From IMG/VR virus record IMGVR_UViG_2698536485_000014: 13,543 bases of DNA. The stretch is one strand, 5' to 3'. This document shows, piece by piece, positions 1 through 13,318 of this stretch. How positions within the stretch are numbered: the stretch's first letter is position 1; each line of letters opens with the position of its first letter. The translations under genes and the position numbers were made by a program. The notes beneath the pieces were generated by a model that was not told the DNA's origin, ran no database searches, and worked only from the letters and a program-made list of their open reading frames with translations. The stretch is from a virus. Taxonomy: Duplodnaviria > Heunggongvirae > Uroviricota > Caudoviricetes.

Positions 1-252
1 CACGAAAGGCACTCCCCCGAATCAGTTCAGGCTGCGGTCACATCAGCGGGGAAATACCTTTCGGGATAGCTACCCACACAGAAAACCCGCAAAAGAAAAC
101 TGTGTGGATAACTAGCCCAATAGGAGAATTAATCGACCACTCAACGATGATCAGGGTAGTGTTATTTATAAGGCGGCACCGCTACCTGGTCGCCTTTACT
201 TTGGAGGAAAATACGGCAAATCACTTTCACCATTGATTTACGGTATATGTAT

Positions 253-281
253 ATTATATCAGTATTCTCTCAAATTGTCAA
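253..281 (-). promoter_or_regulatory. Consensus sigma70-type promoter firing leftward
   Basis: Reverse complement of 253-281 reads TTGACA, a 17-nt spacer, then TATAAT: both hexamers perfect with optimal spacing. Downstream on the minus strand (1-245) there is no ORF in the window, so the target is an sRNA or a gene beyond the left edge. Confidence 0.4.
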
Positions 282-590
282 CACCCTTATTATATAAATT
301 CTAATAATTAGCGTGGTAACGGTATTTTCAGACCTCTATCAATCCCATCAATACGTCACCCCCACCCTTTAGATGCATACATCCGACCTACTTTGTAGGC
401 TTGGCGTACTGCCAAGGTCGCAGCTATGCGACTCATATCTATCACCACTTTATAAAGCTTGATAGATATCTTTTGATCAATATCAATGTTTTCCGGGGAT
501 TTACCCGGCTATAGTTCGAATCAAGGAAGGGGAGCATTGATAGCACCCCAACCGAACAAACAAATCAACTTCTCGCAAAAGGTGATAGTT

Positions 591-713
591 ATGGGTATCA
601 AGAACAGTGCCAGCGCATGGCAAAAGGCCAGGTTTCATCACCCACACATTATTAAGGCAATTGAGGTGGTTGGAGTGTTAGCCCTGATGTTAGCTCTGTG
701 TGTGGAGGTGTGA
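591..713 (+). CDS. Small hydrophobic peptide (40 aa), possible membrane peptide
   Basis: ATG at 591 lies in frame inside the 486..713 track ORF and is preceded by an AAGGTGA Shine-Dalgarno. The C-terminal half is hydrophobic (AIEVVGVLALMLALCVEV). A 15-nt box TCAACTTCTCGCAAA sits 11 nt upstream of the ATG, as at the 1133 gene. Short ORF, may be non-coding. Confidence 0.3.
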   Translation: MGIKNSASAWQKARFHHPHIIKAIEVVGVLALMLALCVEV

Positions 714-814
714 GATGGGCAAAGGAGGCAAAGCATTTTTAATAAGTCTGGCTATCCTGGATGTTCTACTAATCATGATTGAGCGGAGTTTATGAACAGC
801 ATTGAGAGGAGTTT

Positions 815-1075
815 ATGACGGGGGCTAAAGATATCAGGAGACTGAGGGAAGAGCTGATAGCTGAAATTAAAGCTAAGGCAAAGCAAATGGAGATAGCCGC
901 ACAAATGGATGTAGCGGAGCAGATGTACAAGATGGTTGAGGAGGGAACACCACGACAGGTTATCGCTAAAACCTTCGGTGTGGGGATCGCCACCGTGCAT
1001 AGAAGGCTGAAAGCCTATGCCGACTACCACAATATCGAGAGAAAGGAGGATGGGAGATTCAGGAAAGCTAAATGA
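815..1075 (+). CDS. Small DNA-binding protein with C-terminal helix-turn-helix (86 aa)
   Basis: AGGAG Shine-Dalgarno before ATG 815. Charged coiled-coil-like N-terminus followed by a motif (TPRQVIAKTFGVGIATVHRRLKAY) typical of resolvase/TerS/sigma-type HTH. An 8-codon uORF (792..818) overlaps the start codon via ATGA. Confidence 0.6.
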   Translation: MTGAKDIRRLREELIAEIKAKAKQMEIAAQMDVAEQMYKMVEEGTPRQVIAKTFGVGIATVHRRLKAYADYHNIERKEDGRFRKAK

Positions 1076-1132
1076 TGTAAACGGTCCAACAGGTTATTAA
1101 CTAAACTCAACTTCTCGCAAAGGGGTACCACT

Positions 1133-1720
1133 ATGAACATTAAAACTATCATTGCAGTCATCACTATTGCCTTTAGTGCCAACACCGCAGCTATTGATGT
1201 AGGGGCCGTAAAAGATGCATCTTGTGCTGATAAACTGGCGGCACTTAATGCGGGATTCGATGCACCCCAGGGCTATCAAATGGGGCTATCTCTTAAAAAT
1301 ATTATTCTCCCTATGGAATCTGGCGCTTATGTATACGGAGCGATAGGAAAACTGGAGAAGCCGGAAATTGACCTGCAGGGTGTGAGAGCGAAGATCACAA
1401 AAAGAAATGAAAGCCTTTGTGATGTAGCTGAAATAGCTTTCATATCAGACGATGAAAAATCTATTTTAGCCTTTTGCAAAGATAGCGATGATAATGATCG
1501 CTTCTTTAAGATCACCCACAACAGGCCAATCTCTTTCTACTCTAATGCCACTATGGGCGCGGGTATGCAGTGGCTGAAGAGAGCTAAAGTAACTGAGATC
1601 GACATTGAAAAAGAGGCCAATGCAGGCAGTTATGGATTCTGGAAAGGCTGGACTAAATACACGTTCCAACAATGCGGCATCGATAGTCAGGCCTACGACA
1701 ACGGATTTTGGTTTTTCTAA
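1133..1720 (+). CDS. Secreted/periplasmic protein of unknown function (195 aa), moron-like
   Basis: N-terminus MNIKTIIAVITIAFSANTAA has a classic Sec signal peptide shape (basic residue, hydrophobic core, small-residue cleavage region). Four cysteines in the mature part; aromatic C-terminus (FWFF). GGGG Shine-Dalgarno at 1122-1125; terminator 22 nt downstream. Confidence 0.7.
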   Translation: MNIKTIIAVITIAFSANTAAIDVGAVKDASCADKLAALNAGFDAPQGYQMGLSLKNIILPMESGAYVYGAIGKLEKPEIDLQGVRAKITKRNESLCDVAEIAFISDDEKSILAFCKDSDDNDRFFKITHNRPISFYSNATMGAGMQWLKRAKVTEIDIEKEANAGSYGFWKGWTKYTFQQCGIDSQAYDNGFWFF

Positions 1721-1741
1721 CCTGCTAAGTTAATCCCACCA

Positions 1742-1768
1742 GGGGGCCATCACGGCCCCTTTTTATTT
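1742..1768 (+). terminator. Rho-independent terminator after the 1133..1720 gene
   Basis: Stem GGGGCC (1743-1748), loop ATCAC, stem GGCCCC (1754-1759), followed by TTTTTATTT. Confidence 0.6.
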
Positions 1769-1842
1769 GCCTCTTTGAATTACCCCCTATTTACACTCCT
1801 TTCAGTCCTGATCATCACTCCCTACGGTCATGAGCAATTAAC

Positions 1843-1889
1843 CCCTATTTAAGGGGTATTTAATGGGTATTTAATGCCTATTTATTGAT
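1843..1889. repeat. Four tandem 11-bp AT-rich repeats
   Basis: TATTTAA/TATTTAAT/TATTTAAT/TATTTATT begin at 1846, 1857, 1868 and 1879, an exact 11-bp period. The first unit is embedded in the hairpin CCCCTATTTAAGGGG. Confidence 0.5.
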
Positions 1890-1965
1890 TTAATCCGTTT
1901 TATGCCACAACCGCCCGGTTGACAGAGTAAGAGAGAGGGTGTAACCCTTTTTCGTAACACCAATA

Positions 1966-1981
1966 AAATCAATAAGTTAGC
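1966..1981. repeat. 16-bp exact direct repeat, left copy (AAATCAATAAGTTAGC)
   Basis: Identical 16-mer at 1966-1981 and 9620-9635, with 17 of 18 identity when extended. Rough chance expectation for a 16-mer pair in 13.5 kb is about 0.02. Confidence 0.45.
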
Positions 1982-2356
1982 TTAATAAGCCTTTTCTCTA
2001 TTTTTGTCAAATTTAACATACCCTCAAAAACTGCAAAATCTGGCTGCAAGATTATCTGCAGCTGGATTTCTTACACCTCATTTTGTGGTATCACCCTGAC
2101 TAGTTTGTGCATAAAATGAACAGTTTTTAACATTTCCTCTTCACCTGGTAACCACACAAAAAGCTAAAAACGAGGCACAGATAATCTTAGAGGCCTGTTT
2201 TCTTGTTATCACTCTGGAAACGTCGTAGAAGTGATTTTGATGAAAGATGACCTACCCTATTACACCCCCATTTTTTGTTATCACAATTGCATCCTGTGCG
2301 GTATATGGCTGTGTGCTGAAAGCGGTCTTGGGTGTGGGTGTCAGAAATATCCATTA

Positions 2357-2372
2357 GCGGTATTAATACCCG
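2357..2372. promoter_or_regulatory. Isolated palindrome GGTATTAATACC, related to the CGGTA...TACCG family
   Basis: Perfect 12-bp palindrome at 2359-2370 inside GCGGTATTAATACCCG, with the same half-sites as the array at 3300-3490 but a 1-nt shorter centre. Confidence 0.3.
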
Positions 2373-3157
2373 TCAGATGTTCGTCTGAGGTGCCAGGCAG
2401 GCGCTCCCCCACCTCCCTTTTTTCTTCTAACAATTCTCAAATATCACACCACTGCCCACCACGTTGCTATTATGTTAATTCTTAAGCTTTGCTGTATGTT
2501 GTGCACATTATTTATTCAGGTGCATGTACGTAAATTCTGGGCCTCCTTATCATGATTTTTAAATCAGATTTTGTAGTTCGGTTTCTTAGTGTAGATAAGA
2601 TCTATTATGTTAAATGCAATTTTCCCAACCCTTCAAATCAATGACTTACATGTAAGCATGCACTAACACCCCACACAGCACATTAGACGTGTAGATGTCT
2701 ATATCCCACATTTTTGATTGTTTTGTAGTCATTCCCCTGATCATTTAACCAGTATAGTTTGCTCTCTGCAGACCACAAAATCGGAATTTACATCTGATTA
2801 ACATAATCTGTTAGCATGATCACCATTACCCACACAACAATAACCCCATGCAAGCCTCTTTAGGCAATTTATCGGCGTGTTGGTGTGAACAGTCTTTCAT
2901 GTTCTTTATGTATTCATGACTGCAAGGAATGTATTCATTGTCCTGTGTGAGGGAAGGCTGGACTGCTCCAGGGGCCATAGTTATGATGCCCGGTCAACAT
3001 AGCTGTTGATAAAATCAACGGGTGTTGGCCTGCATATTTCCCACACATGAGAGGAAATCAAAGCAAAGAGAGAGGAGAGAGGTTTGCTAGACGATCAGGA
3101 CTATACAGAGTCAAAATCAAGTCACATTAGAGTCAAATCAGATGCAATCAATCCCCC

Positions 3158-3218
3158 ACCTGTTGGGATTTCCCACATGTTCAACCATACACAGGAGCTA
3201 ACCTGTTGGGATTTCCTA
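3158..3218. repeat. Two 18-bp direct repeats (ACCTGTTGGGATTTCCCA / ...CCTA)
   Basis: 3158-3175 and 3201-3218 match at 17 of 18 positions, 43 bp apart. Confidence 0.5.
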
Positions 3219-3235
3219 CACCTCTTGCACATACC

Positions 3236-3490
3236 CCGGAAGATTTTTCCGGTGTCTCCAACCTGTGAAGAATTTTCACACCTGTAAATCCATACAGCAC
3301 GGTAAAAACTACCGCACAACCTGTCAAAATATTTTACTACTCCCTTTAGTCATACCCCTTTCAGTCATACTCAGGCACCACACCCCGGTAAATATTACCG
3401 TACTCAGGCAGATATAAAGGGGCTAACCACGGCAAATATTTCCCTACTACCTCGGTAAATATTTCCGGTGTACCCCGGTAAAAATTACCG
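3236..3490. promoter_or_regulatory. Phased array of 15-bp palindromic sites (iteron/operator-like)
   Basis: CGGTAAAAACTACCG (3300-3314), CGGTAAATATTACCG (3386-3400), degenerate CGGCAAATATTTCCC (3430-3444), CGGTAAATATTTCCGG (3453-3468), CGGTAAAAATTACCG (3476-3490). Related palindromes CCGGAAGATTTTTCCGG (3236-3252) and GTGAAGAATTTTCAC (3265-3279). Centre-to-centre spacings are 86, 44, 23.5 and 22.5 bp, roughly multiples of two helical turns. Confidence 0.55.
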
Positions 3491-3519
3491 CCTAATAGAT
3501 AAAGTAATAGACCACACAA

Positions 3520-4060
3520 TAGATCCCCCCCTAACCCCCAAGGGGAATGGGGAGGGATCAGAGAGTGGGGAAGGTTTTCTAAGGGAAAAGCTTAACCCAC
3601 AAATGAAAGCCTAAAGAGCATGAGCGACTCTTTAGGCAATCTGTGTGTGGGGGGGGTGACAATGTATTCCATACATGACACGTCACCCAATTGTGTGTGG
3701 GAGTGCCTACGGCACCTTAGCCCATGGCTAAGCCCTTCGGGTCTGTGTGGGTCCGGCGAATGCGTCAGCATGAGGCCCACAATGTGGACCGCTGCCGAAA
3801 GCTTGCCAGCGCCGGAAGGAGGCAGCAAAGAGTCTCCCGCGCTCATGTGTGGGCGTATACGTAAGATATACACTCATAAATCGAAAATAAGCCCCCTAAA
3901 TGGCCTTCTGGCTGCATTAACCTGTGTGAGTAGTGAATTGCATTACCTGATGCTTAAATCGCGTTAGAATCGATTTTAGAGCGCTTAAGGCAAAAAGTGC
4001 CCTCCCTTGTGGGCTTGCTTGTGTCTGCTGTGCAGGCTATGGCACCTATAGCACACCTAA
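3520..4060. other. GC-rich, hairpin-dense non-coding segment; candidate structured RNA or protein-binding array
   Basis: No credible ORF. Perfect 10-bp stem GCCTAAAGAG/CTCTTTAGGC (3609-3637); nested hairpin 3654-3688; GTGCC-TAC-GGCAC (3703-3715); CTTAGCC-CAT-GGCTAAG; a C(TTCG)G tetraloop; GAAA loops. Boxes TGTGTGGG at 3643, 3692, 3744 and 3846, with degenerate copies at 3923 and 4007. Confidence 0.3.
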
Positions 4061-4076
4061 ATGATAATAATTCTCA

Positions 4077-4105
4077 TTGACAATTGGTTGACAATATGAT
4101 AAGAT
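4077..4105 (+). promoter_or_regulatory. Possible sigma70 promoter for the small membrane ORF
   Basis: TTGACA (4077-4082), 17-nt spacer, TAAGAT (4100-4105). A second TTGACA at 4088-4093 lacks a good -10. Confidence 0.3.
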
Positions 4106-4140
4106 TATAAATAGGGGGAGAAACAGATCCGGAGGTCAAT

Positions 4141-4290
4141 GTGGAAATTACAGATGCAATAGCGATCATCAACCTGGCTGTACTGTGGTGCGGTGTTGCC
4201 TACATAGCCGGAGTAACTGCAATCGACAATCTTGAAGAAAAAATGATAGATAAATACAAAAAGATTGTTGACAATTTGACGAATGTCTGA
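4141..4290 (+). CDS. Small membrane protein (49 aa, GTG start), hypothetical
   Basis: GGAGG Shine-Dalgarno at 4131-4135, 5 nt before GTG 4141. The product VEITDAIAIINLAVLWCGVAYIAGVTAIDNLEEKMIDKYKKIVDNLTNV contains one predicted transmembrane helix. Not in the ORF track because it is under 60 aa. Confidence 0.3.
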   Translation: MEITDAIAIINLAVLWCGVAYIAGVTAIDNLEEKMIDKYKKIVDNLTNV

Positions 4291-4296
4291 TAAAAT
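4268..4296 (+). promoter_or_regulatory. sigma70-type promoter upstream of the plus-strand gene module
   Basis: TTGACA (4268-4273), 17-nt spacer, TAAAAT (4291-4296). Predicted start near 4303, about 120 nt before ATG 4423. Confidence 0.5.
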
Positions 4297-4422
4297 ATAA
4301 AGCATAGGGTAATTCTCATCATAGTGAATTTCCTTTAGTAGACTGGCGGGGGCTTGTCTTAAGTTCCCGTTTCTTTTTAACCATATATCGCACAGGTTAG
4401 TGAGCTGACAGGAGATTGAATC

Positions 4423-4638
4423 ATGGCTAAAACCGGACCGATAAGCCAGCTAGTAAACTGGACTACTGACGAAATCGTCGAGAACGTGCTTAAAGGTAAC
4501 TTTCGAAAAACTTCCGTTTATGCATTTATTCGTAAACACAAAGGAGAATATCCACACATTGAAGCGGCAATTTTAGAACTGAACCGTCTCCGCATCGAGC
4601 GTGAGCTGGCTAAATACACCAACAACATTAATAAATAA
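4423..4638 (+). CDS. Small basic protein (71 aa), possible regulator
   Basis: AGGAG Shine-Dalgarno 8 nt before ATG 4423. First gene of a compact co-directional cluster. No recognisable family by eye. Confidence 0.55.
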   Translation: MAKTGPISQLVNWTTDEIVENVLKGNFRKTSVYAFIRKHKGEYPHIEAAILELNRLRIERELAKYTNNINK

Positions 4639-4651
4639 TTATGGGGGAACT

Positions 4652-5518
4652 ATGGCAAACAACTATGGGGAAAATTTTACTCCCCTTTTTAAACGTTTCA
4701 TCAAATACATTTTTAAAAATCCGATTGCAAAAACTACAACCAATAAAGAAAGATTTCACTTAAATTTGTTGGAAATGGCAATTTACGGTGAAATGGCAAG
4801 TTTCCATTTAAACGGTAAAGAAATATTTATCTCTGAGCAAACCTTAGCAGATGATTATGATGCCACAGAAAAAACAGTAAGGTCGGCTATCAAAACATTA
4901 GAGGCTGCAGGACTAATATTTGTAAAACGGAGCAGAGGTAAGTCTAATCATTACAAACTACTTATTACTCCTGATCAGCTTGGCAAGATGTGTGATGAGC
5001 AGGGTATTAAAACCTCCGCAAGTGTGGGATACAGCAAAGAGGCCTCCGATAATCAACAGGAAGCCCCAAAACAAGCCACACAGCAGCCTGAAAAGCCCGA
5101 GGCAATGCAATCCCCTTCCCAACCTAAAAAAGAACGCAGAGAACGCCGTAGAGACGCTGGCAAACGTGAAATAGATGAGCACGGTTATCCGATTCTGACA
5201 AGCGATGAAATGAATGCTAGATATAAAGTAATTCAGGCCGCATTTAAAGATCAGAAGAGAATTAAATTATCTGAATTGCGTGATACATTTTACGGGCCGG
5301 AGGTGATGGATAAAATTAAAGGCACTATTCCCGATAAAATCTGGAAAGAGAAAGATTATTGGCACCTGACAGAGCAGGCCCTTAAGGTGGCTCAACATGT
5401 GGTTAAAAGAGGCAAAACAATTACCCTTGATTCTATTAGTCATGGCTATGATGCACCGAAAGAAAGATTGTGGAACAACTGCAAGCTTGTAAATGGTGAA
5501 TTGACAATTACAAAATAA
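4652..5518 (+). CDS. Winged-helix DNA-binding protein (289 aa), possible replication initiator or organiser
   Basis: GGGGGA Shine-Dalgarno before ATG 4652; the track ORF 4601..5518 begins at an upstream GTG with no Shine-Dalgarno. N-terminal wHTH-like segment (ISEQTLADDYDATEKTVRSAIKTLEAAGLIFVKRSRGK), a low-complexity Q/P/E/K-rich linker, then a C-terminal domain. Architecture resembles iteron-binding initiators such as lambda O; this is an inference. Confidence 0.6.
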   Translation: MANNYGENFTPLFKRFIKYIFKNPIAKTTTNKERFHLNLLEMAIYGEMASFHLNGKEIFISEQTLADDYDATEKTVRSAIKTLEAAGLIFVKRSRGKSNHYKLLITPDQLGKMCDEQGIKTSASVGYSKEASDNQQEAPKQATQQPEKPEAMQSPSQPKKERRERRRDAGKREIDEHGYPILTSDEMNARYKVIQAAFKDQKRIKLSELRDTFYGPEVMDKIKGTIPDKIWKEKDYWHLTEQALKVAQHVVKRGKTITLDSISHGYDAPKERLWNNCKLVNGELTITK

Positions 5519-5557
5519 ATATTCTTATTTTTTACAGTATTCTAAAGGAAATTTAAA

Positions 5558-5704
5558 ATGTATGGCGATTTTGATTATTACCTGGAAAAGGAAAAATATT
5601 TTGAAGATGAACTATCACAACATTTTTCATATTGGGAAGAATATTGTGGTTGGTTAGCTGAAGATCCAGCAGATGAAGAAAATGATTCTGACATCCCTTA
5701 TTAA
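5558..5704 (+). CDS. Small acidic protein (48 aa), hypothetical
   Basis: AAGGAA Shine-Dalgarno before ATG 5558. Product MYGDFDYYLEKEKYFEDELSQHFSYWEEYCGWLAEDPADEENDSDIPY is strongly acidic and aromatic. Below the ORF-track size cut-off. Confidence 0.35.
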   Translation: MYGDFDYYLEKEKYFEDELSQHFSYWEEYCGWLAEDPADEENDSDIPY

Positions 5705-5808
5705 TTAATATCCCCTGTTATCCCCAAATAAACTAAATAAACTAATTACATATAGAACTAGAACTAGATTGATTTCTCTTTAATGTTAAATTGACTGGAG
5801 AATTAATC

Positions 5809-6294
5809 ATGTTCAAATCTGATCTTTCTGATTCCCAATTTGAAAAACTGGTAGCACTGCAGAAATATCTCCCCAGTGATGATCAACCAACACGACAGGC
5901 TAAGCACTTATTAGTCGAGGGCTTTACCCCTGAATTCGTGGCGGAATACACAGGCGTTAAACTTGAGAAAGTCCAAAAACTATATAATGAGTCCTGGAAT
6001 CCACGGTGTAGAGTTCCCCTCAGTGTCTACAACGAAATAGATAGAGATAGAAATGTCTTCGAAGATCGCCGCCGCAAATCTCTTTTAATGTGGAATTGCG
6101 GGATGAATATTGAAGAGATAGCAAAAGAATTAAAAGTAACCTGCTTTCATATCTGGGGCTTGTTGAGTGAAATCCTGCCACGTAAGGAGCTTAATCAACG
6201 TTTGCCTAAGCCCGGTAGTCGTGCTTATCGCGAATTTATATTCATCTACCGCCGCCATAGCAATAAAGTCCGGAAAGCAATGCAGCGCAAATAG
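5809..6294 (+). CDS. Hypothetical protein (161 aa) with two HTH-like segments
   Basis: GGAG Shine-Dalgarno before ATG 5809; the track start 5791 is a TTG. Segments FTPEFVAEYTGVKLEKVQKLY and GMNIEEIAKELKVTCFHIWGLL look like helix-turn-helix motifs. Basic C-terminus. Confidence 0.55.
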   Translation: MFKSDLSDSQFEKLVALQKYLPSDDQPTRQAKHLLVEGFTPEFVAEYTGVKLEKVQKLYNESWNPRCRVPLSVYNEIDRDRNVFEDRRRKSLLMWNCGMNIEEIAKELKVTCFHIWGLLSEILPRKELNQRLPKPGSRAYREFIFIYRRHSNKVRKAMQRK

Positions 6295-6336
6295 CTTATA
6301 GCCTTCACATATGCCGCAAGTTATTGATTCTGCCGT

Positions 6337-6352
6337 CCGGTAAATATGCCGG
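6337..6352. promoter_or_regulatory. Extra copy of the palindromic operator (CCGGTAAATATGCCGG)
   Basis: Same CGGTAAATAT core as the array at 3300-3490, placed 31 nt upstream of ATG 6383 in the gap between two genes. Confidence 0.4.
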
Positions 6353-6382
6353 ATGGCTCATATAAATTTTAAGGAATTCCAA

Positions 6383-6826
6383 ATGTCTCAAATCGCTAAA
6401 TTACTATCCCAGGTTATCAAAGCTTTCGACGCTGAAGATTCAAAAGTTCGCCAGGATCTTTTAGATGGCAAGTTTACCAACACCCTGGCATTTACCCGTG
6501 ACAAAGAGCACTTCTTAAAACACAGACACCACGCTTTTGCTGAATGCAAGTCCGCTAATGGTGATGTTTTCTATGTCGATTTGGTGGTTATGGCATGTAG
6601 GCTGTGGATGATTCAGGACCTTATGCGCCAACACGGTGATGATCCTCTTATCAGCATGTGGAACAGCGCCCAGGATGGCTTTGTGATTGCTGCCTTATCC
6701 AAATCAATGATTGAGGCAGAAGGGGCAAGCCTTCAGAACATGGCAGATCTCTTTGAAATAAGCGTAGGAATGATGCAGACCATGCTCCAAGCTGTCAAAC
6801 CTCTCAAACTGGTTAATCTTGATTAA
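6383..6826 (+). CDS. Hypothetical protein (147 aa), predicted mainly helical
   Basis: AAGGA Shine-Dalgarno 7 nt before ATG 6383; the track start 6353 lacks a Shine-Dalgarno and overlaps the operator. Composition is rich in A, L, M, Q, K and E, unlike a beta-rich tail tube protein. Confidence 0.55.
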   Translation: MSQIAKLLSQVIKAFDAEDSKVRQDLLDGKFTNTLAFTRDKEHFLKHRHHAFAECKSANGDVFYVDLVVMACRLWMIQDLMRQHGDDPLISMWNSAQDGFVIAALSKSMIEAEGASLQNMADLFEISVGMMQTMLQAVKPLKLVNLD

Positions 6827-6885
6827 GCTATTGATAAATAAGCACTCCCCATTTTTGGGGGGTGCATCAATGAGAGGATATGCCT

Positions 6886-7269
6886 ATGAATATTGAAGAA
6901 ATGATAGTTGAATTCGAAGAGGGTGATTTCCTGGAAGATGGGGAGTTTAGTTACTCCCATTTTAAACAGGCGTTATTTAGCAGCGATGATAAACCACACG
7001 TTAGTGATCTTAACGACGATGATTTATGTCGTTGGGTGTGCACCCGCTTATATGAGGATGGAAAATATACAGGCCAAAACTTTCCAAATCTCTATTTCAA
7101 AGCACAAACATTTGAGGAAGGGCAAAGAGTGAAAAACCTGGTCGATCAAATGCTGTCAGCCGGATATTTGCATAAAGAATTATTAAATCCTAAAGCTGAA
7201 AGCAAGCGCCATTATATTTTTGTGTGGACTATTGGCGATAAGTGTCCACTAAGACGCAAAGGCAAATGA
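6886..7269 (+). CDS. Hypothetical acidic protein (127 aa)
   Basis: GAGAGGA Shine-Dalgarno 7 nt before ATG 6886. Acidic N-terminus. Second gene upstream of the tape-measure gene. Confidence 0.5.
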   Translation: MNIEEMIVEFEEGDFLEDGEFSYSHFKQALFSSDDKPHVSDLNDDDLCRWVCTRLYEDGKYTGQNFPNLYFKAQTFEEGQRVKNLVDQMLSAGYLHKELLNPKAESKRHYIFVWTIGDKCPLRRKGK

Positions 7270-7270
7270 T

Positions 7271-7507
7271 ATGAACACCTACGAAAAGATTTATCAAAAA
7301 CTGGTTAAGGACTCCGAAGAGACGCCCGAAGGGGTGACAATAGGTCACCTACCAGAGGCAGCGAAAGAGGGGTCCACCATTATTAAAAGTGGCACCCACA
7401 CAGAAGGCCTCTCAATCGAAGAGCTGGCGGAGAAATATAATATTGATAAAGAGGCCCTGAAAAGGGCTATTTCATTATCAAAATCTTTAAGACAGGGTGA
7501 GGTATAA
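7271..7507 (+). CDS. Hypothetical protein (78 aa)
   Basis: ATG 7271 lies 1 nt after the upstream TGA. The gene ends 1 nt before the tape-measure start, so the three genes are tightly packed. Confidence 0.5.
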   Translation: MNTYEKIYQKLVKDSEETPEGVTIGHLPEAAKEGSTIIKSGTHTEGLSIEELAEKYNIDKEALKRAISLSKSLRQGEV

Positions 7508-7508
7508 A

Positions 7509-9608
7509 ATGGCAATGAAGGAAGTAGCCAAACTAACAAACGTTATTTACTGGGATTCTGATAAATCCTCCTGGCGAAAAGAAGTTAAACGGCTTGAGGA
7601 TTATAAAAAATCCTGGAAGAAAGCTACCGACGATATAGCTAAAGCGGATTTTAAATCGAATCAGGCTGTGCTCAGAACACAAAGAACACGCGCTAAGGTG
7701 GAAGAGCAGATCGCCAGAGCACAGAAGAAACAACGTGCTCAGGCTGTCAGCCGTCTGACCGGGGGCAATAATCCGGAGCTCTCCTCTATGCGCAAGTTCT
7801 ATCAGCAGCAAGCCAGAGAGGCCGCCAGACAACAAAAACTGTTAGATCGTAGTGTTGGAGATGTTCAGCACAGAAAAGCACGTGTAGGGGCCAACAGTGC
7901 ACGAATCAGCAGCATGTTTGATGGCTCCCTGGTTGCTCAGTTCCAAAGCAGGATCCAGAGAGTTAATGCTGATTATGCTAAAGGGGCTATCAACCTGCAG
8001 GCCTATAATCAGAAAATGGCTCGGCTCAGGGCTGAAATGAAGATGGCAACAGCAGAGGCCGGAAAATTTCAGAGCAGACTGGATAAACTGGCATCAGGTG
8101 CCAGCAAGGTGCATGACAACCTGGGCAAAATCAACTCCACACTAGGCAAGATAGCCATTGGCCTTACTGCCGCTGGCTGGGGTGTTCAGCGTGCTGTTAG
8201 TGGTGCTATGGGTAGCCTTGCAGATCGCAACAGTGCCTACTTCGGTTTGATGGCACAGAACAAGGATGATAAAGCCAAGACTGATCAGCAGATGGCTTTT
8301 ATCAAGAACACAGCCTACACCTATGGGATGGATGAGCGGGAGATGCAAGGGGGCTACATGCGCTTTGCTGCAGCTACTCCCACCATGAAGGAATCTGATA
8401 AGCAGGCTCTTTTTGAGGCTATGGCTATTAAAGGTCGCTCAGTGGGTGCTACTGGCGAGCAACAGAACAGGGCGCTTGTTGCGGTCCAACAAATGGCTTC
8501 AAAGGGAAAAGTTATGGCGGAAGAGCTGCGGGGCCAACTGTCAGAAGCCTTTGCAGGCTCACAACAGGATTTTCAACAGGCCGCTATTGATGCCGGAATC
8601 ATCAAGAATACCCAGGAATTCGATAAAGCCCTTAAAGATGGCAAAATCACCCTGGATAAGCTACTCCCTTCTTTGGTGAAAATCTGGTCTGCAGCCAAGA
8701 ATACGAAAGCCTTTGCTGAATCCATGAAACAGCCAGAAGTAGCAATGCAGCGCATGAAAAACAGCTTTAACGAGCTGGCGATTCAGTTTATGGGTGTTGT
8801 GGATCCTGCGGATGGCGTTATTAGCTTATCTGAATCTCTGATCTCCATCTTTGAAGACCTCACCACTGATATGGACGGCAGCGGGAGCGCGGCAAAACAG
8901 TTCGGTGAGGCAGTCGGGGCTGCCATGCGTGAGATCATGTATTGGGTAGGCTTCGCTAAGGGATATATTGAGGTCAAGGCTAAAGAGTTCGGCATGACCG
9001 GATCAGAGGTTGGCGAGCTTATCGGAAAATTGGTAGTCGGCTTAGCTGGTCTGAAAGTTATTACTACACTGCTTTCCCCTCTAACCGGATTTGTTTCACT
9101 TGTCACCCAACTGATAGCTTTGTTAGGTAAAATCCCTGGTATGAGCAAGCTTCTGGCTTCTGCCTCAGGTGGAACGGCAACAGGAGCAGCGGTCATCAGT
9201 GCAGGCTCTAACGCTGAAAGAAGTTTCATTGATGGCAAGACGCAGGAAATGAGTAAGGAGAACTCAAAACAGGGTGCTTTGTTTGAGCTGGGAAGATTTG
9301 TTAGCAATGCTGGCGCACTGTTCACACCTGGCGGTGATACTGGTCCTTTGTTCGATCAGGTCAGAGGCTGGTTTAATAAAGGGCCAACATTGACAGTAGA
9401 CACTGGCATCAGACCTACACCAACAGGCGGCATAGCTATCCAGAATGGTGGATATCAACCAGTCCAAGTAAATGTAGCCCCACAAGGTGAGATTTCCGGC
9501 AAATGGGAGATAACCATTGATGAGGGTGGAATTGCCAGGGTGATCCAGAAGGAAGTCAGCGATCAGTTGGATTGGAAAGCCACACAGGAATCTAACCAGC
9601 TTTTCTAA
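7509..9608 (+). CDS. Tail tape-measure-domain protein (699 aa)
   Basis: GGTGAGG Shine-Dalgarno 6 nt before ATG 7509; the track start 7497 is a GTG. Coiled-coil, Q/R/K-rich N-terminus. Central segment ...QQMASKGKVMAEELRGQLSEAFAGS...KALKDGKITLDKLLPSL... matches my recollection of the conserved tape-measure domain motif. Hydrophobic segments (LIGKLVVGLAGLKVITTLLSPLTGFVSLVTQLIALLG) and a Gly-rich C-terminus are also typical. Confidence 0.6.
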   Translation: MAMKEVAKLTNVIYWDSDKSSWRKEVKRLEDYKKSWKKATDDIAKADFKSNQAVLRTQRTRAKVEEQIARAQKKQRAQAVSRLTGGNNPELSSMRKFYQQQAREAARQQKLLDRSVGDVQHRKARVGANSARISSMFDGSLVAQFQSRIQRVNADYAKGAINLQAYNQKMARLRAEMKMATAEAGKFQSRLDKLASGASKVHDNLGKINSTLGKIAIGLTAAGWGVQRAVSGAMGSLADRNSAYFGLMAQNKDDKAKTDQQMAFIKNTAYTYGMDEREMQGGYMRFAAATPTMKESDKQALFEAMAIKGRSVGATGEQQNRALVAVQQMASKGKVMAEELRGQLSEAFAGSQQDFQQAAIDAGIIKNTQEFDKALKDGKITLDKLLPSLVKIWSAAKNTKAFAESMKQPEVAMQRMKNSFNELAIQFMGVVDPADGVISLSESLISIFEDLTTDMDGSGSAAKQFGEAVGAAMREIMYWVGFAKGYIEVKAKEFGMTGSEVGELIGKLVVGLAGLKVITTLLSPLTGFVSLVTQLIALLGKIPGMSKLLASASGGTATGAAVISAGSNAERSFIDGKTQEMSKENSKQGALFELGRFVSNAGALFTPGGDTGPLFDQVRGWFNKGPTLTVDTGIRPTPTGGIAIQNGGYQPVQVNVAPQGEISGKWEITIDEGGIARVIQKEVSDQLDWKATQESNQLF

Positions 9609-9619
9609 TATTGTGATCT

Positions 9620-9635
9620 AAATCAATAAGTTAGC
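9620..9635. repeat. 16-bp exact direct repeat, right copy (AAATCAATAAGTTAGC)
   Basis: Identical to 1966-1981; lies 12 nt after the tape-measure stop codon. Confidence 0.45.
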
Positions 9636-9655
9636 CTGACCGGATAAACTCCAGG

Positions 9656-9690
9656 CAAGAAAAAAGCCCCTAAGTGTTAACAAAGGGGCT
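9656..9690 (-). terminator. Rho-independent terminator on the minus strand
   Basis: Stem AGCCCCT (9665-9671) pairs with AGGGGCT (9684-9690) around a 12-nt loop. On the minus strand the stem is followed by TTTTTCTTG. On the plus strand no T-run follows. Confidence 0.45.
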
Positions 9691-9719
9691 CTTCTCCGGT
9701 ATCCTTTTGATGCGGGGCG

Positions 9720-9767
9720 AACCTGCTAACAAAAATCAACCTCTCGCGAGACTAATGTTAGCAGGTT
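9720..9767. repeat. 12-bp perfect inverted repeat with 24-nt loop
   Basis: AACCTGCTAACA (9720-9731) pairs with TGTTAGCAGGTT (9756-9767). The loop contains the palindrome TCTCGCGAGA and a degenerate copy of the leader box (TCAACCTCTCGCGAG). Confidence 0.5.
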
Positions 9768-10108
9768 GCCGGAAGGTAAGTCAACTCCGGCCTATAAACC
9801 TTAAAGCGACTATAAAATCGCCCCGCCAATTGTGATGATCCGACCTTTGAGGCGGGTCCGGTGCCCAGGGGGTGCAGTGATGCACAAACCAGGCAACGAT
9901 AAACAGGCTAACAGTGATAGCGGCGCTCAATCAGCGCACTAAATCCTAACCAGTCCGGGAAAGAGGCTGGCTCTATCGACCGCTCATGCACGGGACAATG
10001 CATACCTGATAAAGGATTCTCACAAGGGACCAATCGCGAGAAAAGAAGTGGAAAGGGGCTGATTTGTGGTGTATCACTACGGCCTCAAAAGAACACTATT
10101 ACCTTTTT

Positions 10109-10567
10109 TCAGCCTCTCCCAACATTTGACCAGTATTTGATTGCACCGATCAAATCATCATAGTGGCGCATTGCATCATTGAAGCCTTTATAGCTTGCCC
10201 ATTGTGGGGAGACTTTGTTATTGCTGAATTGCCCACTAATCAGGATAGTCTCCAAAATGTCGGCGTATCGCTTGCCAATTCGCTTTCTGACGGCCTCAGA
10301 GCTTCCACCCTTTACGATTGCATTAATCAGGGCTTTTGTGTGTCTCAGGCTCTCATAGAGCATTGCAGCGTGGGCAGATTCCATAAAGGAGCGCTTAGGC
10401 AGATCACCCCACCCCTCAGAGTGGATAGCTGCCAGTGTGGCGTAATTCAGGCCGCTATAGTGCTTTCCGTCATCCCAGCCAACCGCTACACCTTCCATCT
10501 GTGAGAGCTCTTTATGCAGCTTATCCATCATGCGCTTGTCTATGGTGCAACGGACTTTCGGACTCAT
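10109..10567 (-). CDS. Hypothetical protein (152 aa), possibly virion morphogenesis-associated
   Basis: GGAG Shine-Dalgarno 8 nt before the minus-strand ATG at 10567. The start overlaps the upstream gene stop as ATGA (10564-10567). Function assigned by position only. Confidence 0.55.
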   Translation of the reverse strand: MSPKVRCTIDKRMMDKLHKELSQMEGVAVGWDDGKHYSGLNYATLAAIHSEGWGDLPKRSFMESAHAAMLYESLRHTKALINAIVKGGSSEAVRKRIGKRYADILETILISGQFSNNKVSPQWASYKGFNDAMRHYDDLIGAIKYWSNVGRG

Positions 10568-11367
10568 TTGTTGATCTCCGTGATGTCATCGAGCAACATG
10601 TTGGCCTTATCAATCATCGTTTCGTGGAACTCATTCGACACAACAGACTTATCACCTGCGGCAATCTTTCCCGCTGCCTCTCCCTGTGCATATTCCCCGC
10701 GATGCTTAGCCCTGGTTGATTTCGTAGCAGCATTGCCAGCGTTACTACCCTCTTTAGCACTGTTAACAGCACCCTTTTGCTGTGTTTTATTCACCTTCTT
10801 ACTGTTAGTGAAAACTCCGGCATTTTCGACCATCTTCACCTTGAAGGTGCGGAATTCTTCAAAAGTGCAATCAATAGTGATGCAGTCACCGGAGGAAGAG
10901 CTACGCTTAACTTCACATTTCGTCATGATGAAGTTCTCAAGAAGTCCGGCATCTTCACTCACCAGGCTAACCAGCTGGCGCTTGTCTCTCATTTCCATAA
11001 GAGCACGCACAGCGGCGGCGGGGCGCATGGATTCAAGGGGATTATCTGGATCAGTGTTCCGGTCGATGTAGTTCTCTTTCCGGATAATGTGAGGGGAAGA
11101 GGTAATAATGCCCGTAAAGCTGACAGATTTATCTTTAATGACGGCATGGTCTGACATGGTGGTGCCATCCTCGACCGCATAGCTCGATTTCTCAACAGGG
11201 AACGAATAGCTGACATCAGAGATAGAGTCAAAGAAGATAGCCACATTATCGGTATAGTTGAAGCCATCCATCATATTTTTGTTTTGTGAATATCCCCCAC
11301 ACATAACAGTGAATGCAGGAGATCTCGACTCAGCTTGTTTTGCAGCTGTCAGAGCATCACTAGCCAT
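10564..11367 (-). CDS. Hypothetical protein (about 268 aa), Ser/Thr/Val-rich with low-complexity C-terminus
   Basis: Preferred start is ATG at 11367, with GGAGG 10 nt upstream. The alternatives are ATG 11376 (too close to the Shine-Dalgarno) and the track TTG at 11421. The composition suggests a beta-rich structural protein; this is an inference. Confidence 0.55.
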   Translation of the reverse strand: MASDALTAAKQAESRSPAFTVMCGGYSQNKNMMDGFNYTDNVAIFFDSISDVSYSFPVEKSSYAVEDGTTMSDHAVIKDKSVSFTGIITSSPHIIRKENYIDRNTDPDNPLESMRPAAAVRALMEMRDKRQLVSLVSEDAGLLENFIMTKCEVKRSSSSGDCITIDCTFEEFRTFKVKMVENAGVFTNSKKVNKTQQKGAVNSAKEGSNAGNAATKSTRAKHRGEYAQGEAAGKIAAGDKSVVSNEFHETMIDKANMLLDDITEINK

Positions 11368-11561
11368 AGTAAACATGCCTCCAAATTGGTCCACTTCATG
11401 GATTTGGCTAAACTCGTGCAAATAGCCCTCGTCTTGAGGGTGTTAAAGCCAAACCTGCAAAAGATGCAGGCAAAATAGAACTTATCGTTGCCCTGCTTAA
11501 AATCTGCAGAAAATACAGGGCAGTTATTCGTTAGAATCGCTTATAGCTCTTCCCGAGAGCG

Positions 11562-11813
11562 TTATTTTGCAAAACGATTATGGGCATTCAGGGCTTTTTT
11601 GCGGTCCTGGGCTTGTTTGCGTGCAATAAAATGTTCGAAAGTCTCGGCCCAGGTGCATTTATTATATTCACGGTATTTATGCATAGCCTGGCGGCTAACG
11701 TCATAGCAGGCGGCAAATGTGGAGATACGCAGGAATTCCGGCAGATCCTCGTCATCGATATGGATAATATCAAAAGGCACGTCGTCACGGTCGCCGTATA
11801 AAACAATTTTCAT
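11562..11813 (-). CDS. Small acidic protein (83 aa) with possible HTH
   Basis: GAGGTG Shine-Dalgarno 8 nt before ATG 11813; the track start 11822 is a GTG. Contains the segment CYDVSRQAMHKYREY. Sits just downstream of the capsid terminator. Confidence 0.45.
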   Translation of the reverse strand: MKIVLYGDRDDVPFDIIHIDDEDLPEFLRISTFAACYDVSRQAMHKYREYNKCTWAETFEHFIARKQAQDRKKALNAHNRFAK

Positions 11814-11845
11814 AAAAGACACCTCAAAAAACTTAAGACGGGGAT

Positions 11846-11910
11846 AATAAAAAAGGGAAGAGGGAAAGACCTATCCCCGATCTCTCACCTCTTCCCTTTG
11901 CTTTTATTTG
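11846..11910 (-). terminator. Terminator/attenuator after the major capsid gene, possibly bidirectional
   Basis: Stem AAAGGGAAGAGG (11852-11863) pairs with CCTCTTCCCTTT (11888-11899) around a 24-nt loop. The minus-strand transcript is followed by TTTATTAT; the plus strand is followed by GCTTTTATTT. Confidence 0.5.
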
Positions 11911-11927
11911 GCCTTCGAAGAAGGACC

Positions 11928-12971: not shown

Positions 12972-12982
12972 CTTCAACCTCC

Positions 12983-13318
12983 TTATTGTGCAACACGCAA
13001 ATCGCCATTGCTGGCAGCGATAACAGCGGCTAAGCCGTCTTTATCCACGTAGGCCGGATTGATATAACAGCCTTTGTTGGCAACAACGATAAAAGCGTCA
13101 CCAACCTCAGCACGTTCTACAACCAGCAGCGGAGTTTTACCGGTGTGTGTTTCTTTAACGAAGGTCTCAACCTCGCCAGCCTCAGTCACCACAACAACAG
13201 TGCCAGCCGGAATCTCAGCTTTAACTTTGTTTTTAATTTCAACGTCGCGAATACTAAATTGCTCATCTGCGGCGTATGAAATGATGTGTCCGCGTGTGCG
13301 GATAGTCATATCTTTCAT
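12983..13318 (-). CDS. Head decoration-like protein (111 aa)
   Basis: AGGTGA Shine-Dalgarno before ATG 13318. Small Val/Ala/Glu-rich product directly upstream of the capsid gene, in the gpD-gpE arrangement. Its stop codon overlaps the capsid Shine-Dalgarno. Call is by position and size only. Confidence 0.45.
   Translation of the reverse strand: MKDMTIRTRGHIISYAADEQFSIRDVEIKNKVKAEIPAGTVVVVTEAGEVETFVKETHTGKTPLLVVERAEVGDAFIVVANKGCYINPAYVDKDGLAAVIAASNGDLRVAQ

What the first reader, a model, noticed from the sequence alone, without database searches (positions are those of the whole stretch)
565..1132. Identical 15-nt leader box at a fixed distance upstream of two unrelated genes
TCAACTTCTCGCAAA is at 565-579 and 1107-1121, each exactly 11 nt before the start codons at 591 and 1133 and immediately 5' of the Shine-Dalgarno. 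A degenerate third copy lies in the loop of the 9720-9767 hairpin. This suggests a shared translational or transcriptional control element, or duplicated moron cassettes with a common leader.
Basis: seen in the sequence. Interest (0 to 1): 0.45.

Follow-up and report, generated by a model that had tools for sequence, protein, structure and literature searches.

The report
Small-RNA target box before two genes
The repeated 15-base box is real, and its conserved 12-base core is most likely the docking site for a previously undescribed small antisense RNA, encoded elsewhere on the same 13.5-kb phage-like E. coli plasmid, that jointly controls translation of a tiny membrane protein and a swappable envelope-protein gene.

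Summary
TCAACTTCTCGCAAA occurs exactly at 565-579 and 1107-1121, each 11 nt before an ATG, and a 3-mismatch copy lies at 9736-9750 in the loop of the 9720-9767 hairpin. The window is a whole ~13.5-kb circular E. coli plasmid carrying capsid and tail genes. Across about 40 relatives the conserved unit is the 12-mer TCAACTTCTCGC. It survives although the flanks, SD spacers and the gene behind box 2 (at least 5 alleles) change. The third copy is not a leader. On the minus strand it reads GCGAGAGGUUGA, the box's complement. It lies 7 nt after a TTGACT-18-TAACAT promoter-like site and upstream of a strong minus-strand terminator, which predicts a ~90-nt sRNA with a 5' seed. Four relatives have replaced this region with unrelated DNA but keep TTGACT, the anti-box (now 12/12 Watson-Crick) and a minus-strand terminator. 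All box variants still pair with it. The best reading is a trans-acting antisense sRNA that controls translation of both genes, more likely by repression. It resembles trans-encoded type I antitoxins and phage P1 c4 RNA but belongs to no Rfam family. No expression data exist, and predicted accessibility is unremarkable. Confidence is about 0.55.

The parts
565..579 (+). Box 1 (conserved core 565-576, TCAACTTCTCGC), in the 5' leader of the 40-aa ORF, with SD AAGGTGA at 579-585
   Evidence: Exact match. Invariant in all relatives that cover it, across three sub-lineages with diverged flanks. The 551-600 bin is 92% invariant, the highest outside the regulator region. Pairs over 15 contiguous bp (AAAUCAACUUCUCGC, one G.U) with the predicted sRNA 5' end, -23.6 kcal/mol.
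591..713 (+). orf40: a 40-aa protein with a hydrophobic C-terminal helix (MGIKNSA..HHPH..GVLALMLALCVEV), the first gene behind box 1
   Evidence: Always exactly 40 codons. The frame and hydrophobic tail are kept at about 50% amino-acid divergence. No Pfam, PHROG, NCBIfam or PADLOC match.
815..1075 (+). 86-aa HTH protein (HTH_7-like) between the two boxes, in the same operon
   Evidence: Pfam HTH_7 E=3.4e-6; phrog_664 DNA-binding protein.
1107..1121 (+). Box 2 (core 1107-1118), between the HTH stop codon and the variable gene, with SD GGGG at 1122-1125
   Evidence: Exact match. Unchanged in lineages A and C in front of at least 4 different genes. In lineage B it is ACAACCTCTCGC, or ACAATCTCTCGC in L012. 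Pairs over 12 bp with the sRNA seed, -20.9 kcal/mol.
1133..1720 (+). Variable 'cargo' gene slot (here a 195-aa protein with a signal-peptide-like N-terminus)
   Evidence: Alleles of 195, 173-179, 225-236 and 165-186 aa occupy the same slot, and all are membrane or secreted proteins. No domain hits.
1741..1768 (+). Intrinsic terminator that closes the box operon and forms the conserved 3' border of the cargo slot
   Evidence: Terminator scan. GGGGCCATCACGGCCCC-TTTTT follows every cargo allele.
9779..9784 (-). -35-like hexamer TTGACT of the predicted sRNA promoter
   Evidence: Promoter scan. GAGTTGACTT is one of only three islands shared with the non-homologous L-type region. Present in all 31 contigs that cover the region.
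9755..9760 (-). -10-like hexamer TAACAT (preceded by TGc, 18-nt spacer); the predicted +1 is at about 9747-9748
   Evidence: The same geometry is seen in L-type loci (TTGACT-17-CACACT, then 6 nt, then the anti-box).
9736..9747 (-).
   Evidence: Invariant in 28 W-type loci. Replaced by GCGAGAAGUUGA (12/12 Watson-Crick) in 4 L-type loci.
9658..9747 (-). Predicted sRNA, about 90 nt: 5' seed, U-rich linker, then terminator
   Evidence: Inferred from the promoter geometry and the terminator. No known RNA family matches. No expression data.
9660..9695 (-). Rho-independent terminator on the minus strand (GCCCC...GGGGC stem at 9689-9666, six U from 9665 to 9660)
   Evidence: Fold. The only Rfam resemblance is a ctRNA terminator, 23.6 bits. 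On the + strand no U-run follows the stem.
9720..9767 (.). Inverted repeat (11-bp arms) enclosing the -10, the +1 and the seed; it forms a hairpin only in read-through transcripts or in DNA
   Evidence: In L035 a base-of-stem change gives G.U on the minus-strand RNA and A.C on the plus strand. Absent from L-type loci.

Best explanation
The 12-nt core of the box (UCAACUUCUCGC) is the target site of a trans-acting antisense small RNA encoded on the minus strand at about 9747-9658, between the convergent tail operons of this plasmid. The sRNA is predicted to start at or next to the anti-box (5'-GCGAGAGGUUGA...) and to end at a strong intrinsic terminator. Its 5' seed pairs with the mRNA of the orf40-HTH-cargo operon at two places, each immediately 5' of a Shine-Dalgarno sequence: 15 bp at box 1 and 12 bp at box 2. 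This pairing controls translation initiation of orf40 (a 40-aa membrane protein) and of the exchangeable envelope-protein gene. Repression is the more likely direction, through occlusion of the ribosome landing zone and/or duplex-triggered decay. Expression of the HTH gene is possibly affected as well, through coupling to orf40. Shown directly: the sequences, their complementarity, their conservation and the surrounding signals. Inferred: that the RNA is made, that it pairs, and the sign of the effect.
For: (1) The 12-mer is invariant at box 1 in all relatives and is kept at box 2 while the flanks, SD spacers and downstream genes change. (2) The third copy sits in the most conserved stretch of the whole replicon, 9651-10100, which is 94-98% invariant across lineages whose capsid proteins are 82% identical. 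(3) Minus-strand signals flank it: TTGACT-18-TAACAT ending 7 nt before the anti-box, and a strong minus-strand terminator with six U. The minus strand folds better than the plus strand (z -5.15 for 151 nt; -5.12 against -3.31 for 471 nt). (4) Natural replacement: in L010, L031, L032 and L039 the TMP-to-tail-completion intergenic region is unrelated (blastn word 7, best E 0.03). It still keeps three co-linear minus-strand islands: GAGTTGACTT, CGAGA(A/G)GTTGA and AGGGGCTTTTT. In other words, it keeps a -35, an anti-box (now 12/12 Watson-Crick) 6 nt after a CACACT -10, and a terminator that directly abuts the seed. A chance 12-mer match in about 670 nt on either strand is about 8e-5 (my arithmetic). 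(5) All 33 contigs that cover the region carry the module, and every box-seed combination gives 11-12 contiguous pairs. The only internal box changes (C5>U, U6>C) lie opposite G in the seed. Lineage B has U6 at box 1 and C6 at box 2, both served by that G. Seeds with A at that position occur only with U6 boxes. (6) The two boxes are the best plus-strand duplex partners of the loop after its own complement and the only SD-proximal matches. The one other 13-nt match is G.U-rich, not conserved and 31-43 nt from its ATG. (7) Neither version of the third copy is followed by an SD and ATG.
Against: There is no transcript evidence; the promoter is only a consensus-like match, and the L-type -10 (CACACT) is weak. 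The seed never varies within a type, so there is no true double-sided compensatory change. The support from variation comes from a few events that are all transitions (roughly p 0.02-0.1 by my estimate). Duplex energies of the boxes (-23.5 and -22.0 in the 30-nt scan) barely exceed the background maximum of -21.9. Predicted accessibility is unremarkable: the boxes fall at the 86th and 69th percentile of 12-mers, and the purine-rich seed is predicted to be largely paired with U-rich parts of the sRNA (P unpaired <1e-3). Twelve nt is shorter than the >=15 continuous nt that the OrzO antitoxin needs (PMC3919570), although it is in the range of Hfq-dependent seeds (general knowledge). Retention of the 12-mer in L-type loci is equally expected for a protein-binding site. 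The direction of regulation is not determined.
Confidence: 0.55

Rival explanations
1. The same antisense sRNA exists, but it activates. The pyrimidine tract of the box (CUUCUC) folds back on the purine-rich SD just downstream, and sRNA pairing to the box frees the SD. This is the anti-antisense mechanism seen with DsrA-rpoS or RNAIII-hla.
For: In both leaders the MFE structure pairs the box with the SD (UCGC/GUGA plus AACU/AGUU at box 1; ACUUCU/AGGGGU at box 2). The same is possible for the variant SDs (GGAG, AGGAG) of lineages B and C (by inspection). The sRNA duplex stops 0-4 nt short of the SD rather than covering it.
Against: The local hairpins are weak and the leaders are less structured than shuffled controls (71-nt leaders: -8.3 kcal/mol, z +0.47, and -4.2 kcal/mol, z +1.62). 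There is therefore little inhibition to relieve. Any pyrimidine tract next to an SD would show such pairing.
Confidence: 0.15
2. The 12-mer is a binding site for a protein rather than an RNA. The protein could be a DNA-binding protein such as the 86-aa HTH protein encoded between the boxes, or an RNA-binding translational regulator. It would act at three places: both leaders and the site downstream of the tape-measure gene.
For: Three same-strand copies are conserved, including in the L-type replacement. An HTH gene lies in the same operon. In the W type the copy overlaps a perfect 10-bp palindrome, TCTCGCGAGA, and the start site of a promoter-like element, which is where an operator would sit.
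Against: The boxes themselves have no dyad symmetry, and the palindrome is absent from the L-type copy. Sites 11-14 nt before start codons, one of them inside an operon, are unusual for operators. This model does not explain why a minus-strand -35 at a fixed distance and a minus-strand terminator accompany the third copy in both unrelated contexts. It also does not explain why the tolerated variation is exactly what G.U pairing allows.
Confidence: 0.15
3. The box is a purely cis-acting leader element, such as a translational enhancer, a ribosome standby site or an anti-SD attenuator, and the third copy has an unrelated or no function.
For: The position is immediately 5' of the SD in both genes. 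The leaders are unstructured. There is a superficial likeness to the T7 gene 10 epsilon enhancer UUAACUUUA (from memory).
Against: Complementarity to E. coli 16S rRNA is no better than for shuffled 12-mers (8 contiguous pairs, null mean 8.7, 87% of shuffles at least as good). Other genes of the replicon lack the box. This model leaves unexplained why the 12-mer is retained next to a minus-strand terminator in two non-homologous contexts.
Confidence: 0.08
4. The box is a passive duplication or recombination scar: a leader copied along with a moron, or a site-specific recombination site for cassette exchange, with no regulatory role.
For: The gene behind box 2 is highly exchangeable.
Against: No box or other repeat lies at the 3' junction, which is a conserved terminator. 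The leader follows the backbone lineage, not the cargo allele. The 12-mer is perfectly kept while adjacent intergenic bases are unalignable between lineages, which argues for selection.
Confidence: 0.04

Closest known systems
Trans-encoded type I toxin-antitoxin pairs of E. coli (ZorO-OrzO, TisB-IstR-1, ShoB-OhsC)
   Same: A small hydrophobic protein of under 60 aa has its mRNA 5' region bound by the 5' end of a short, terminator-ended sRNA that is not encoded antisense to it. Complementarity is limited and contiguous (PMC3919570). orf40 fits the toxin profile in size and hydrophobicity.
   Different: Complementarity here is 12-15 nt, against 18-21 nt, and lies directly next to the SD rather than 70-100 nt upstream. 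The sRNA gene is 4.4 kb away, not divergent at the same locus. A second target in front of an unrelated, exchangeable gene has no counterpart. orf40 has no homology to known toxin families and its toxicity is untested. The Rfam ohsC model scores only 18 bits, E 4.5.
Phage P1/P7 immI c4 antisense RNA (and the related P4 CI RNA and N15 CA RNA)
   Same: A phage or plasmid-prophage small RNA pairs with short repeated boxes in the leader of an operon that starts with a small ORF (icd in P1). It thereby controls downstream regulatory genes (P1: PMC8201110 and Citron & Schuster 1990 as cited there; P4 and N15 from my own knowledge).
   Different: c4 and CI are processed out of the same transcript they regulate, on the same strand and upstream of the targets. 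Here the regulator is a separate minus-strand gene. No hit to the Rfam C4 model or to any other family at E<=10. The second target here is a cargo gene, not an antirepressor.
Hfq-type trans-acting sRNAs with a 5' seed (for example RybB and OmrA/B)
   Same: The architecture is a conserved single-stranded seed at the 5' end followed by a Rho-independent terminator with a U-tail. Several mRNAs are targeted at or near their SD through 8-15 nt (general knowledge; PMC3919570 discussion).
   Different: This one is encoded on a 13.5-kb phage-like plasmid and is predicted to act only on two plasmid genes. Hfq dependence is unknown.

Membership tests
Rfam C4 antisense RNA family (P1 c4 / P4 CI type) | Match to the family covariance model | tested here: not met
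   cmscan of the whole window at E<=1 and of 9600-10150 at E<=10 lists no C4 hit. The best hit is a ctRNA_p42d terminator resemblance, 23.6 bits against a gathering score of 50.
Rfam C4 antisense RNA family (P1 c4 / P4 CI type) | Regulator encoded on the same strand, upstream of and co-transcribed with its targets | tested here: not met
   The anti-box is on the opposite strand, 4.4 kb (around the circle) from the boxes, with its own promoter-like site and terminator.
Rfam C4 antisense RNA family (P1 c4 / P4 CI type) | Two short target boxes in the controlled operon, one at the ribosome-binding region of a small first ORF | tested here: met
   Box 1 lies just 5' of the orf40 SD, and box 2 lies further down the same operon.
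Type I toxin-antitoxin (trans-encoded class) | Small (<60 aa) hydrophobic protein | tested here: met
   orf40 is always 40 aa, with a conserved hydrophobic C-terminal segment.
Type I toxin-antitoxin (trans-encoded class) | sRNA with a contiguous stretch complementary to the toxin mRNA | tested here: met
   15 contiguous pairs (W type) or 12 (L type) with the orf40 leader. This is shorter than the 18-21 nt of characterised pairs.
Type I toxin-antitoxin (trans-encoded class) | Toxin and antitoxin genes adjacent at one locus | tested here: not met
   The genes are 4.4 kb apart and separated by the capsid operon.
Type I toxin-antitoxin (trans-encoded class) | Toxicity of the protein on overexpression, relieved by the sRNA | not testable with these tools
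   Needs an experiment.
Type I toxin-antitoxin (trans-encoded class) | Homology to a known toxin or antitoxin family | tested here: not met
   No Pfam, PHROG, NCBIfam or PADLOC hit for orf40. ohsC_RNA scores 18 bits against a gathering score of 50.
Seed-plus-terminator trans-acting sRNA | Intrinsic terminator with a U-tail on the sRNA strand | tested here: met
   Minus-strand GCCCC/GGGGC stem plus six U in the W type, and five U in the L type.
Seed-plus-terminator trans-acting sRNA | Seed conserved more strongly than the rest of the RNA | tested here: met
   Between the W and L types only the -35, the seed and the terminator 3' arm are shared.
Seed-plus-terminator trans-acting sRNA | The transcript exists and depends on Hfq or ProQ | not testable with these tools
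   No RNA-seq or binding data are available.
rRNA-pairing translational enhancer (T7 epsilon type) | Above-chance complementarity to 16S rRNA | tested here: not met
   Longest pairing is 8; shuffled 12-mers average 8.7, and 87% do at least as well.
Box-flanked gene cassette (integron-like site-specific exchange) | Repeat of the site at both cassette borders | tested here: not met
   The 3' border is a conserved terminator with no box.
Lambda-type nut site (boxA/boxB) | Conserved stem-loop RNA element in the leader | tested here: not met
   The leaders show no significant structure (z +0.47 and +1.62 for the 71-nt leaders).

The most novel reading that the evidence does not exclude
The box and anti-box pair is the master switch of an undescribed class of tiny plasmid-borne phage satellites. 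A 5'-seed sRNA, encoded between the convergent tail operons, holds down a type-I-toxin-like 40-aa membrane protein, the element's HTH regulator (through coupling) and a plug-in slot for envelope proteins. Any gene recombined into the slot would automatically come under the same RNA control. Convergent read-through from the tape-measure operon, which is exactly antisense to the sRNA, would relieve that control during particle production.
Probability: 0.2. Interest if true: 0.65.

Novelty: new member of a known kind. Interest (0 to 1): 0.5.

Why it matters
If confirmed, this adds a new, compact sRNA regulon to the short list of RNA-based switches in phages and plasmids (P1 c4, P4 CI, N15 CA, type I antitoxins). 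It has an unusually clean natural experiment: two unrelated regulator loci keep the same 12-nt seed. It also shows how a mobile element can keep an exchangeable cargo gene under fixed post-transcriptional control by conserving only a 12-nt leader box. Finally, it gives an experimental handle (seed and box compensatory mutants) on an uncharacterised family of 13.5-kb E. coli plasmids that carry capsid and tail genes but no detectable packaging or lysis genes.

Tried and rejected
(1) Looked for distant relatives to score covariation. The capsid protein has only >=82%-identical homologs among 5.8 billion proteins, and the HTH protein only >=84%. Protein-pattern scans of viral and genome contigs found nothing. 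The box 1 leader pattern found 0 loci in one-genome-per-species contigs and 3 family members in metagenomes. The promoter-plus-seed pattern in viral contigs gave 2 chance hits without terminators. The lineage is closed, so no seed-changing relatives exist to test.

(2) Known RNA families: none match.

(3) Duplex-energy ranking: the boxes rank first and second, but the margin over background is too small to use as evidence.

(4) Accessibility modelling gives no support.

(5) Enhancer pairing with 16S rRNA: rejected.

(6) Box-flanked cassette: rejected.

(7) The sequence at 10033-10052 (TCGCGAGAAAAGAAGTGG), which looked like a reverse-complement box, varies in L006 and needs an insertion: rejected.

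(8) A fourth 'box' at 5766 is a chance match.

(9) The promoter of the box operon could not be located with confidence; the candidates are 226-255 and a conserved TATAGT near 511-516.

(10) Literature: no paper describes these plasmids or the motif.
Full report
OBSERVATION. TCAACTTCTCGCAAA occurs exactly at 565-579 and 1107-1121 on the + strand. A 3-mismatch copy, TCAACCTCTCGCGAG, lies at 9736-9750. Each exact copy ends 11 nt before an ATG (591, 1133) and abuts the Shine-Dalgarno sequence. The third copy lies in the 26-nt loop of an inverted repeat with 11-bp arms, 9720-9767. Within the window alone the statistics are modest. The shuffle control expects 0.41 matches at <=3 mismatches, and 2 of 200 shuffles reach three. 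However, box 1 and the loop copy share AAATCAAC[T/C]TCTCGC, 14 of 15 bases. By my arithmetic that is expected about 1e-3 times in 2 x 13.5 kb.

CONTEXT. The window aligns end to end with circular E. coli plasmids of 13.2-13.7 kb, plus one 39.6-kb trimer record. It is therefore a complete replicon. It carries the following:
- an HTH_36 Rep gene and six iterons (3233-3490);
- a major capsid protein and a Dit-like protein;
- a tail-completion protein and a tape-measure protein.
No terminase, portal, lysis or integrase gene was detected. The family is rare, with 7 of 5426 complete E. coli genomes and always as a plasmid. It is also isolated: capsid homologs are all >=82% identical among 5.8 billion proteins. 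I found no paper that describes it.

The + strand operon that holds the boxes reads, in order:
- box 1, then orf40 (591-713);
- a 26-codon ORF found only in lineage A;
- an 86-aa HTH_7-like protein (815-1075);
- box 2, then a 195-aa secreted-type protein (1133-1720);
- an intrinsic terminator (1741-1768).

COMPARATIVE ANATOMY OF THE BOXES. I collected 40 related loci. They fall into three sub-lineages: A (window-like), B (capsid 82% identical) and C (L031/L032).

Box 1 is invariant in all of them although its upstream flank diverges.

Box 2 varies by lineage:
- invariant in lineage A;
- in lineage C it reads TCAACTTCTCGC followed directly by AGGAG;
- in lineage B it reads ACAACCTCTCGC, or ACAATCTCTCGC in L012.

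The conserved unit is therefore the 12-mer, always just 5' of the SD, ending 13-17 nt before the ATG.

Behind box 2 at least five unrelated or very divergent genes occur (195, 173-179, 225-236 and 165-186 aa). All are membrane or secreted proteins without known domains. Homology breaks at the ATG and resumes at the same terminator, and there is no second box there. The leader belongs to the backbone, and the gene is cargo dropped into a fixed slot.

orf40 is always 40 codons long. It keeps an MGIKNSA..HHPH N-terminus and a hydrophobic C-terminal helix at about 50% amino-acid divergence. It is a real small membrane protein and matches no known family.

THE THIRD COPY IS A REGULATOR GENE ON THE OTHER STRAND. 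In a whole-replicon alignment of lineages A and B, the most conserved stretch is the non-coding 9651-10100 (94-98% invariant columns). The next most conserved 50-nt bin is 551-600, with box 1 (92%). The cargo region is 0-10%.

Read on the minus strand, the loop copy is GCGAGAGGUUGA. It pairs with UCAACUUCUCGC over 12 contiguous bp (one G.U at box position 6), and over 15 bp at box 1 because AAA/UUU extends the duplex. Two minus-strand signals flank it:
- Upstream lies TTGACT-18-(TGc)TAACAT, ending 7 nt before the first G of the anti-box.
- Downstream lies a strong intrinsic terminator, with a GCCCC/GGGGC stem and six U. In the plus orientation no U-run follows the stem.

The minus strand folds better than the plus strand (z -5.12 against -3.31 over 471 nt; z -5.15 for the 151-nt 3' part). 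The prediction is an sRNA of about 90 nt (9747 to about 9658) with a 5'-terminal seed.

A NATURAL SWAP EXPERIMENT. Four loci (L010, L031, L032, L039) have a different sequence between the tape-measure stop codon and the tail-completion gene. It contains a 49-aa ORF, has no match in the phage collection, and has only a 64-nt match inside that ORF in the plasmid and E. coli collections. Against the window region, blastn with word size 7 finds nothing better than E = 0.03.

Three short co-linear islands are shared on the minus strand: GAGTTGACTT, CGAGA(A/G)GTTGA and AGGGGCTTTTT. In these loci the minus strand reads TTGACT-17-CACACT-TGCCAG-GCGAGAAGUUGA-[terminator hairpin]-UUUUU. That is a -35, a weak -10, a now perfectly Watson-Crick 12-nt anti-box starting at the predicted +1, and a terminator directly abutting the seed, for 50-60 nt in all. 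A chance 12-mer match in about 670 nt is about 8e-5 (my arithmetic). An sRNA gene would need exactly these three elements, and nothing else is conserved.

All 33 contigs that cover the region carry one of the two forms (29 W type, 4 L type). Every box-seed combination gives 11-12 contiguous pairs:
- The two internal box variants (C5>U, U6>C) lie opposite G.
- Lineage B needs that G to serve U6 at box 1 and C6 at box 2.
- Seeds with A at that position occur only with U6 boxes.
- A stem-base change in L035 is G.U on the minus-strand RNA but A.C on the plus strand.

These are few events and all are transitions, so they count as consistent rather than as proof.

SPECIFICITY. Among the 19 translation-initiation regions of the replicon, only the two boxes show long SD-proximal complementarity to the seed (15 and 12 nt; -23.6 and -20.9 kcal/mol). 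A 13-nt G.U-rich match at 5766 is a chance match: it lies 31-43 nt before its ATG, it is not conserved, and it gives only -12 kcal/mol.

WHAT DOES NOT HELP. Four lines of analysis add nothing:
- In a sliding duplex scan the boxes rank first and second after the loop's own complement, but background reaches -21.9 against -22.0 and -23.5.
- Predicted accessibility is unremarkable for the boxes (86th and 69th percentile) and poor for the purine-rich seed, which models as paired with U-rich segments.
- No Rfam family matches. There is no C4 hit, the best hit is a ctRNA-like terminator at 23.6 bits, and ohsC scores 18 bits.
- There are no expression data.

MECHANISM. The best-supported reading is a trans-acting antisense sRNA whose 5' seed docks just upstream of the SD of orf40 and of the cargo gene.

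I favour repression. The leaders are unstructured (z +0.47 and +1.62), so there is little to activate. The duplex lies within or next to the ribosome landing zone, and the first target looks like a type I toxin.

Activation is the main variant. It would work by freeing the SD from the box's CUUCUC tract, a pairing that appears in the MFE folds.

Three rival models explain less:
- A protein site, for example for the HTH protein, would explain retention of the 12-mer. It would not explain the accompanying minus-strand -35 and terminator in two unrelated contexts, nor the wobble-compatible variation.
- An rRNA-pairing enhancer is rejected.
- A cassette recombination site is rejected.

COMPARISON WITH KNOWN SYSTEMS. 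Functionally the module resembles trans-encoded type I TA pairs. In ZorO-OrzO the sRNA 5' end provides 18 nt of complementarity and at least 15 continuous nt are needed (PMC3919570). It also resembles the P1 immI c4 RNA, which controls icd-ant (PMC8201110 and references there).

It is not a member of either group:
- no model hit;
- the regulator is on the other strand, 4.4 kb away;
- complementarity is shorter and lies next to the SD;
- there is a second target in front of an exchangeable cargo gene.

I class it as a new member of a known kind, trans-acting base-pairing sRNAs of mobile elements.

VERDICT. Confidence in the antisense-sRNA mechanism is about 0.55. Interest is 0.5.

Noticed in passing
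window 1-13543 (whole): The window is a complete circular E. coli plasmid of about 13.5 kb. It has a Rep gene and iterons plus capsid, Dit-like, tail-completion and tape-measure genes, but no detectable terminase, portal, protease, lysis or integrase gene. This suggests a plasmid-borne phage satellite or a defective mini phage-plasmid. The capsid protein has only >=82%-identical homologs among 5.8 billion proteins, and the family is present in 7 of 5426 complete E. coli genomes. One record (CP043822, 39.6 kb) is a trimer. No literature was found.
   Followed up: partly
window 9785-10108: About 320 nt of non-coding DNA upstream (in the minus sense) of the predicted sRNA is 94-98% invariant across lineages, more conserved than any gene. 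The minus strand folds with z -5.1. In L-type relatives (L010, L031, L032, L039) it is replaced wholesale by unrelated DNA that carries a 49-aa ORF. Its function is unknown; it could be a second ncRNA or a cis site.
   Followed up: partly
window 253-281 (-), 4077-4105 and 4254-4299 (+): There is a perfect consensus promoter, TTGACA-17-TATAAT with an upstream TG, on the minus strand facing the capsid operon. Similar TTGACAATTTG-type promoter sequences lie in front of the rep operon (46-nt inverted repeat, 76% complementary). This looks like a shared operator-promoter design for a common repressor.
   Followed up: no
window 1783-1900: Just after the cargo terminator there is an array of 10-11-nt repeats (CCCCTATTTA, GGGTATTTAAT, GCCTATTTAT). 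Copy number varies between relatives. They may be centromere-like or protein-binding repeats.
   Followed up: no
window 3233-3490: Six 19-nt iterons (ACCCCGGTAAATATTACCG, 79-100% identical), spaced 23-86 nt apart, lie upstream of the rep region. This is the likely origin of vegetative replication.
   Followed up: no
window 9742-9751: The W-type anti-box overlaps a perfect 10-bp palindrome, TCTCGCGAGA. It could let the RNA self-dimerise or serve as a protein site. It is absent from the L-type version.
   Followed up: partly
window 715-795: A 26-codon hydrophobic ORF (MGKGGKAFLISLAILDVLLIMIERSL) lies between orf40 and the HTH gene in lineage A only. Lineage B goes straight from the orf40 stop codon to the HTH start.
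   Followed up: partly
window 496-511 (and the same place in lineage B, L006): A small stem CCGGG...CCCGG about 55 nt upstream of box 1 is kept in both lineages with different loop sequences (GATTTA against TATATCC). It may be a structured element in the operon leader or a protein site.
   Followed up: no
L011 (lineage B), cargo slot: In L011 the cargo ORF behind box 2 has a premature stop after 27 codons, while L012-L019 have a 186-aa ORF. The cargo gene can decay while the box is kept.
   Followed up: no
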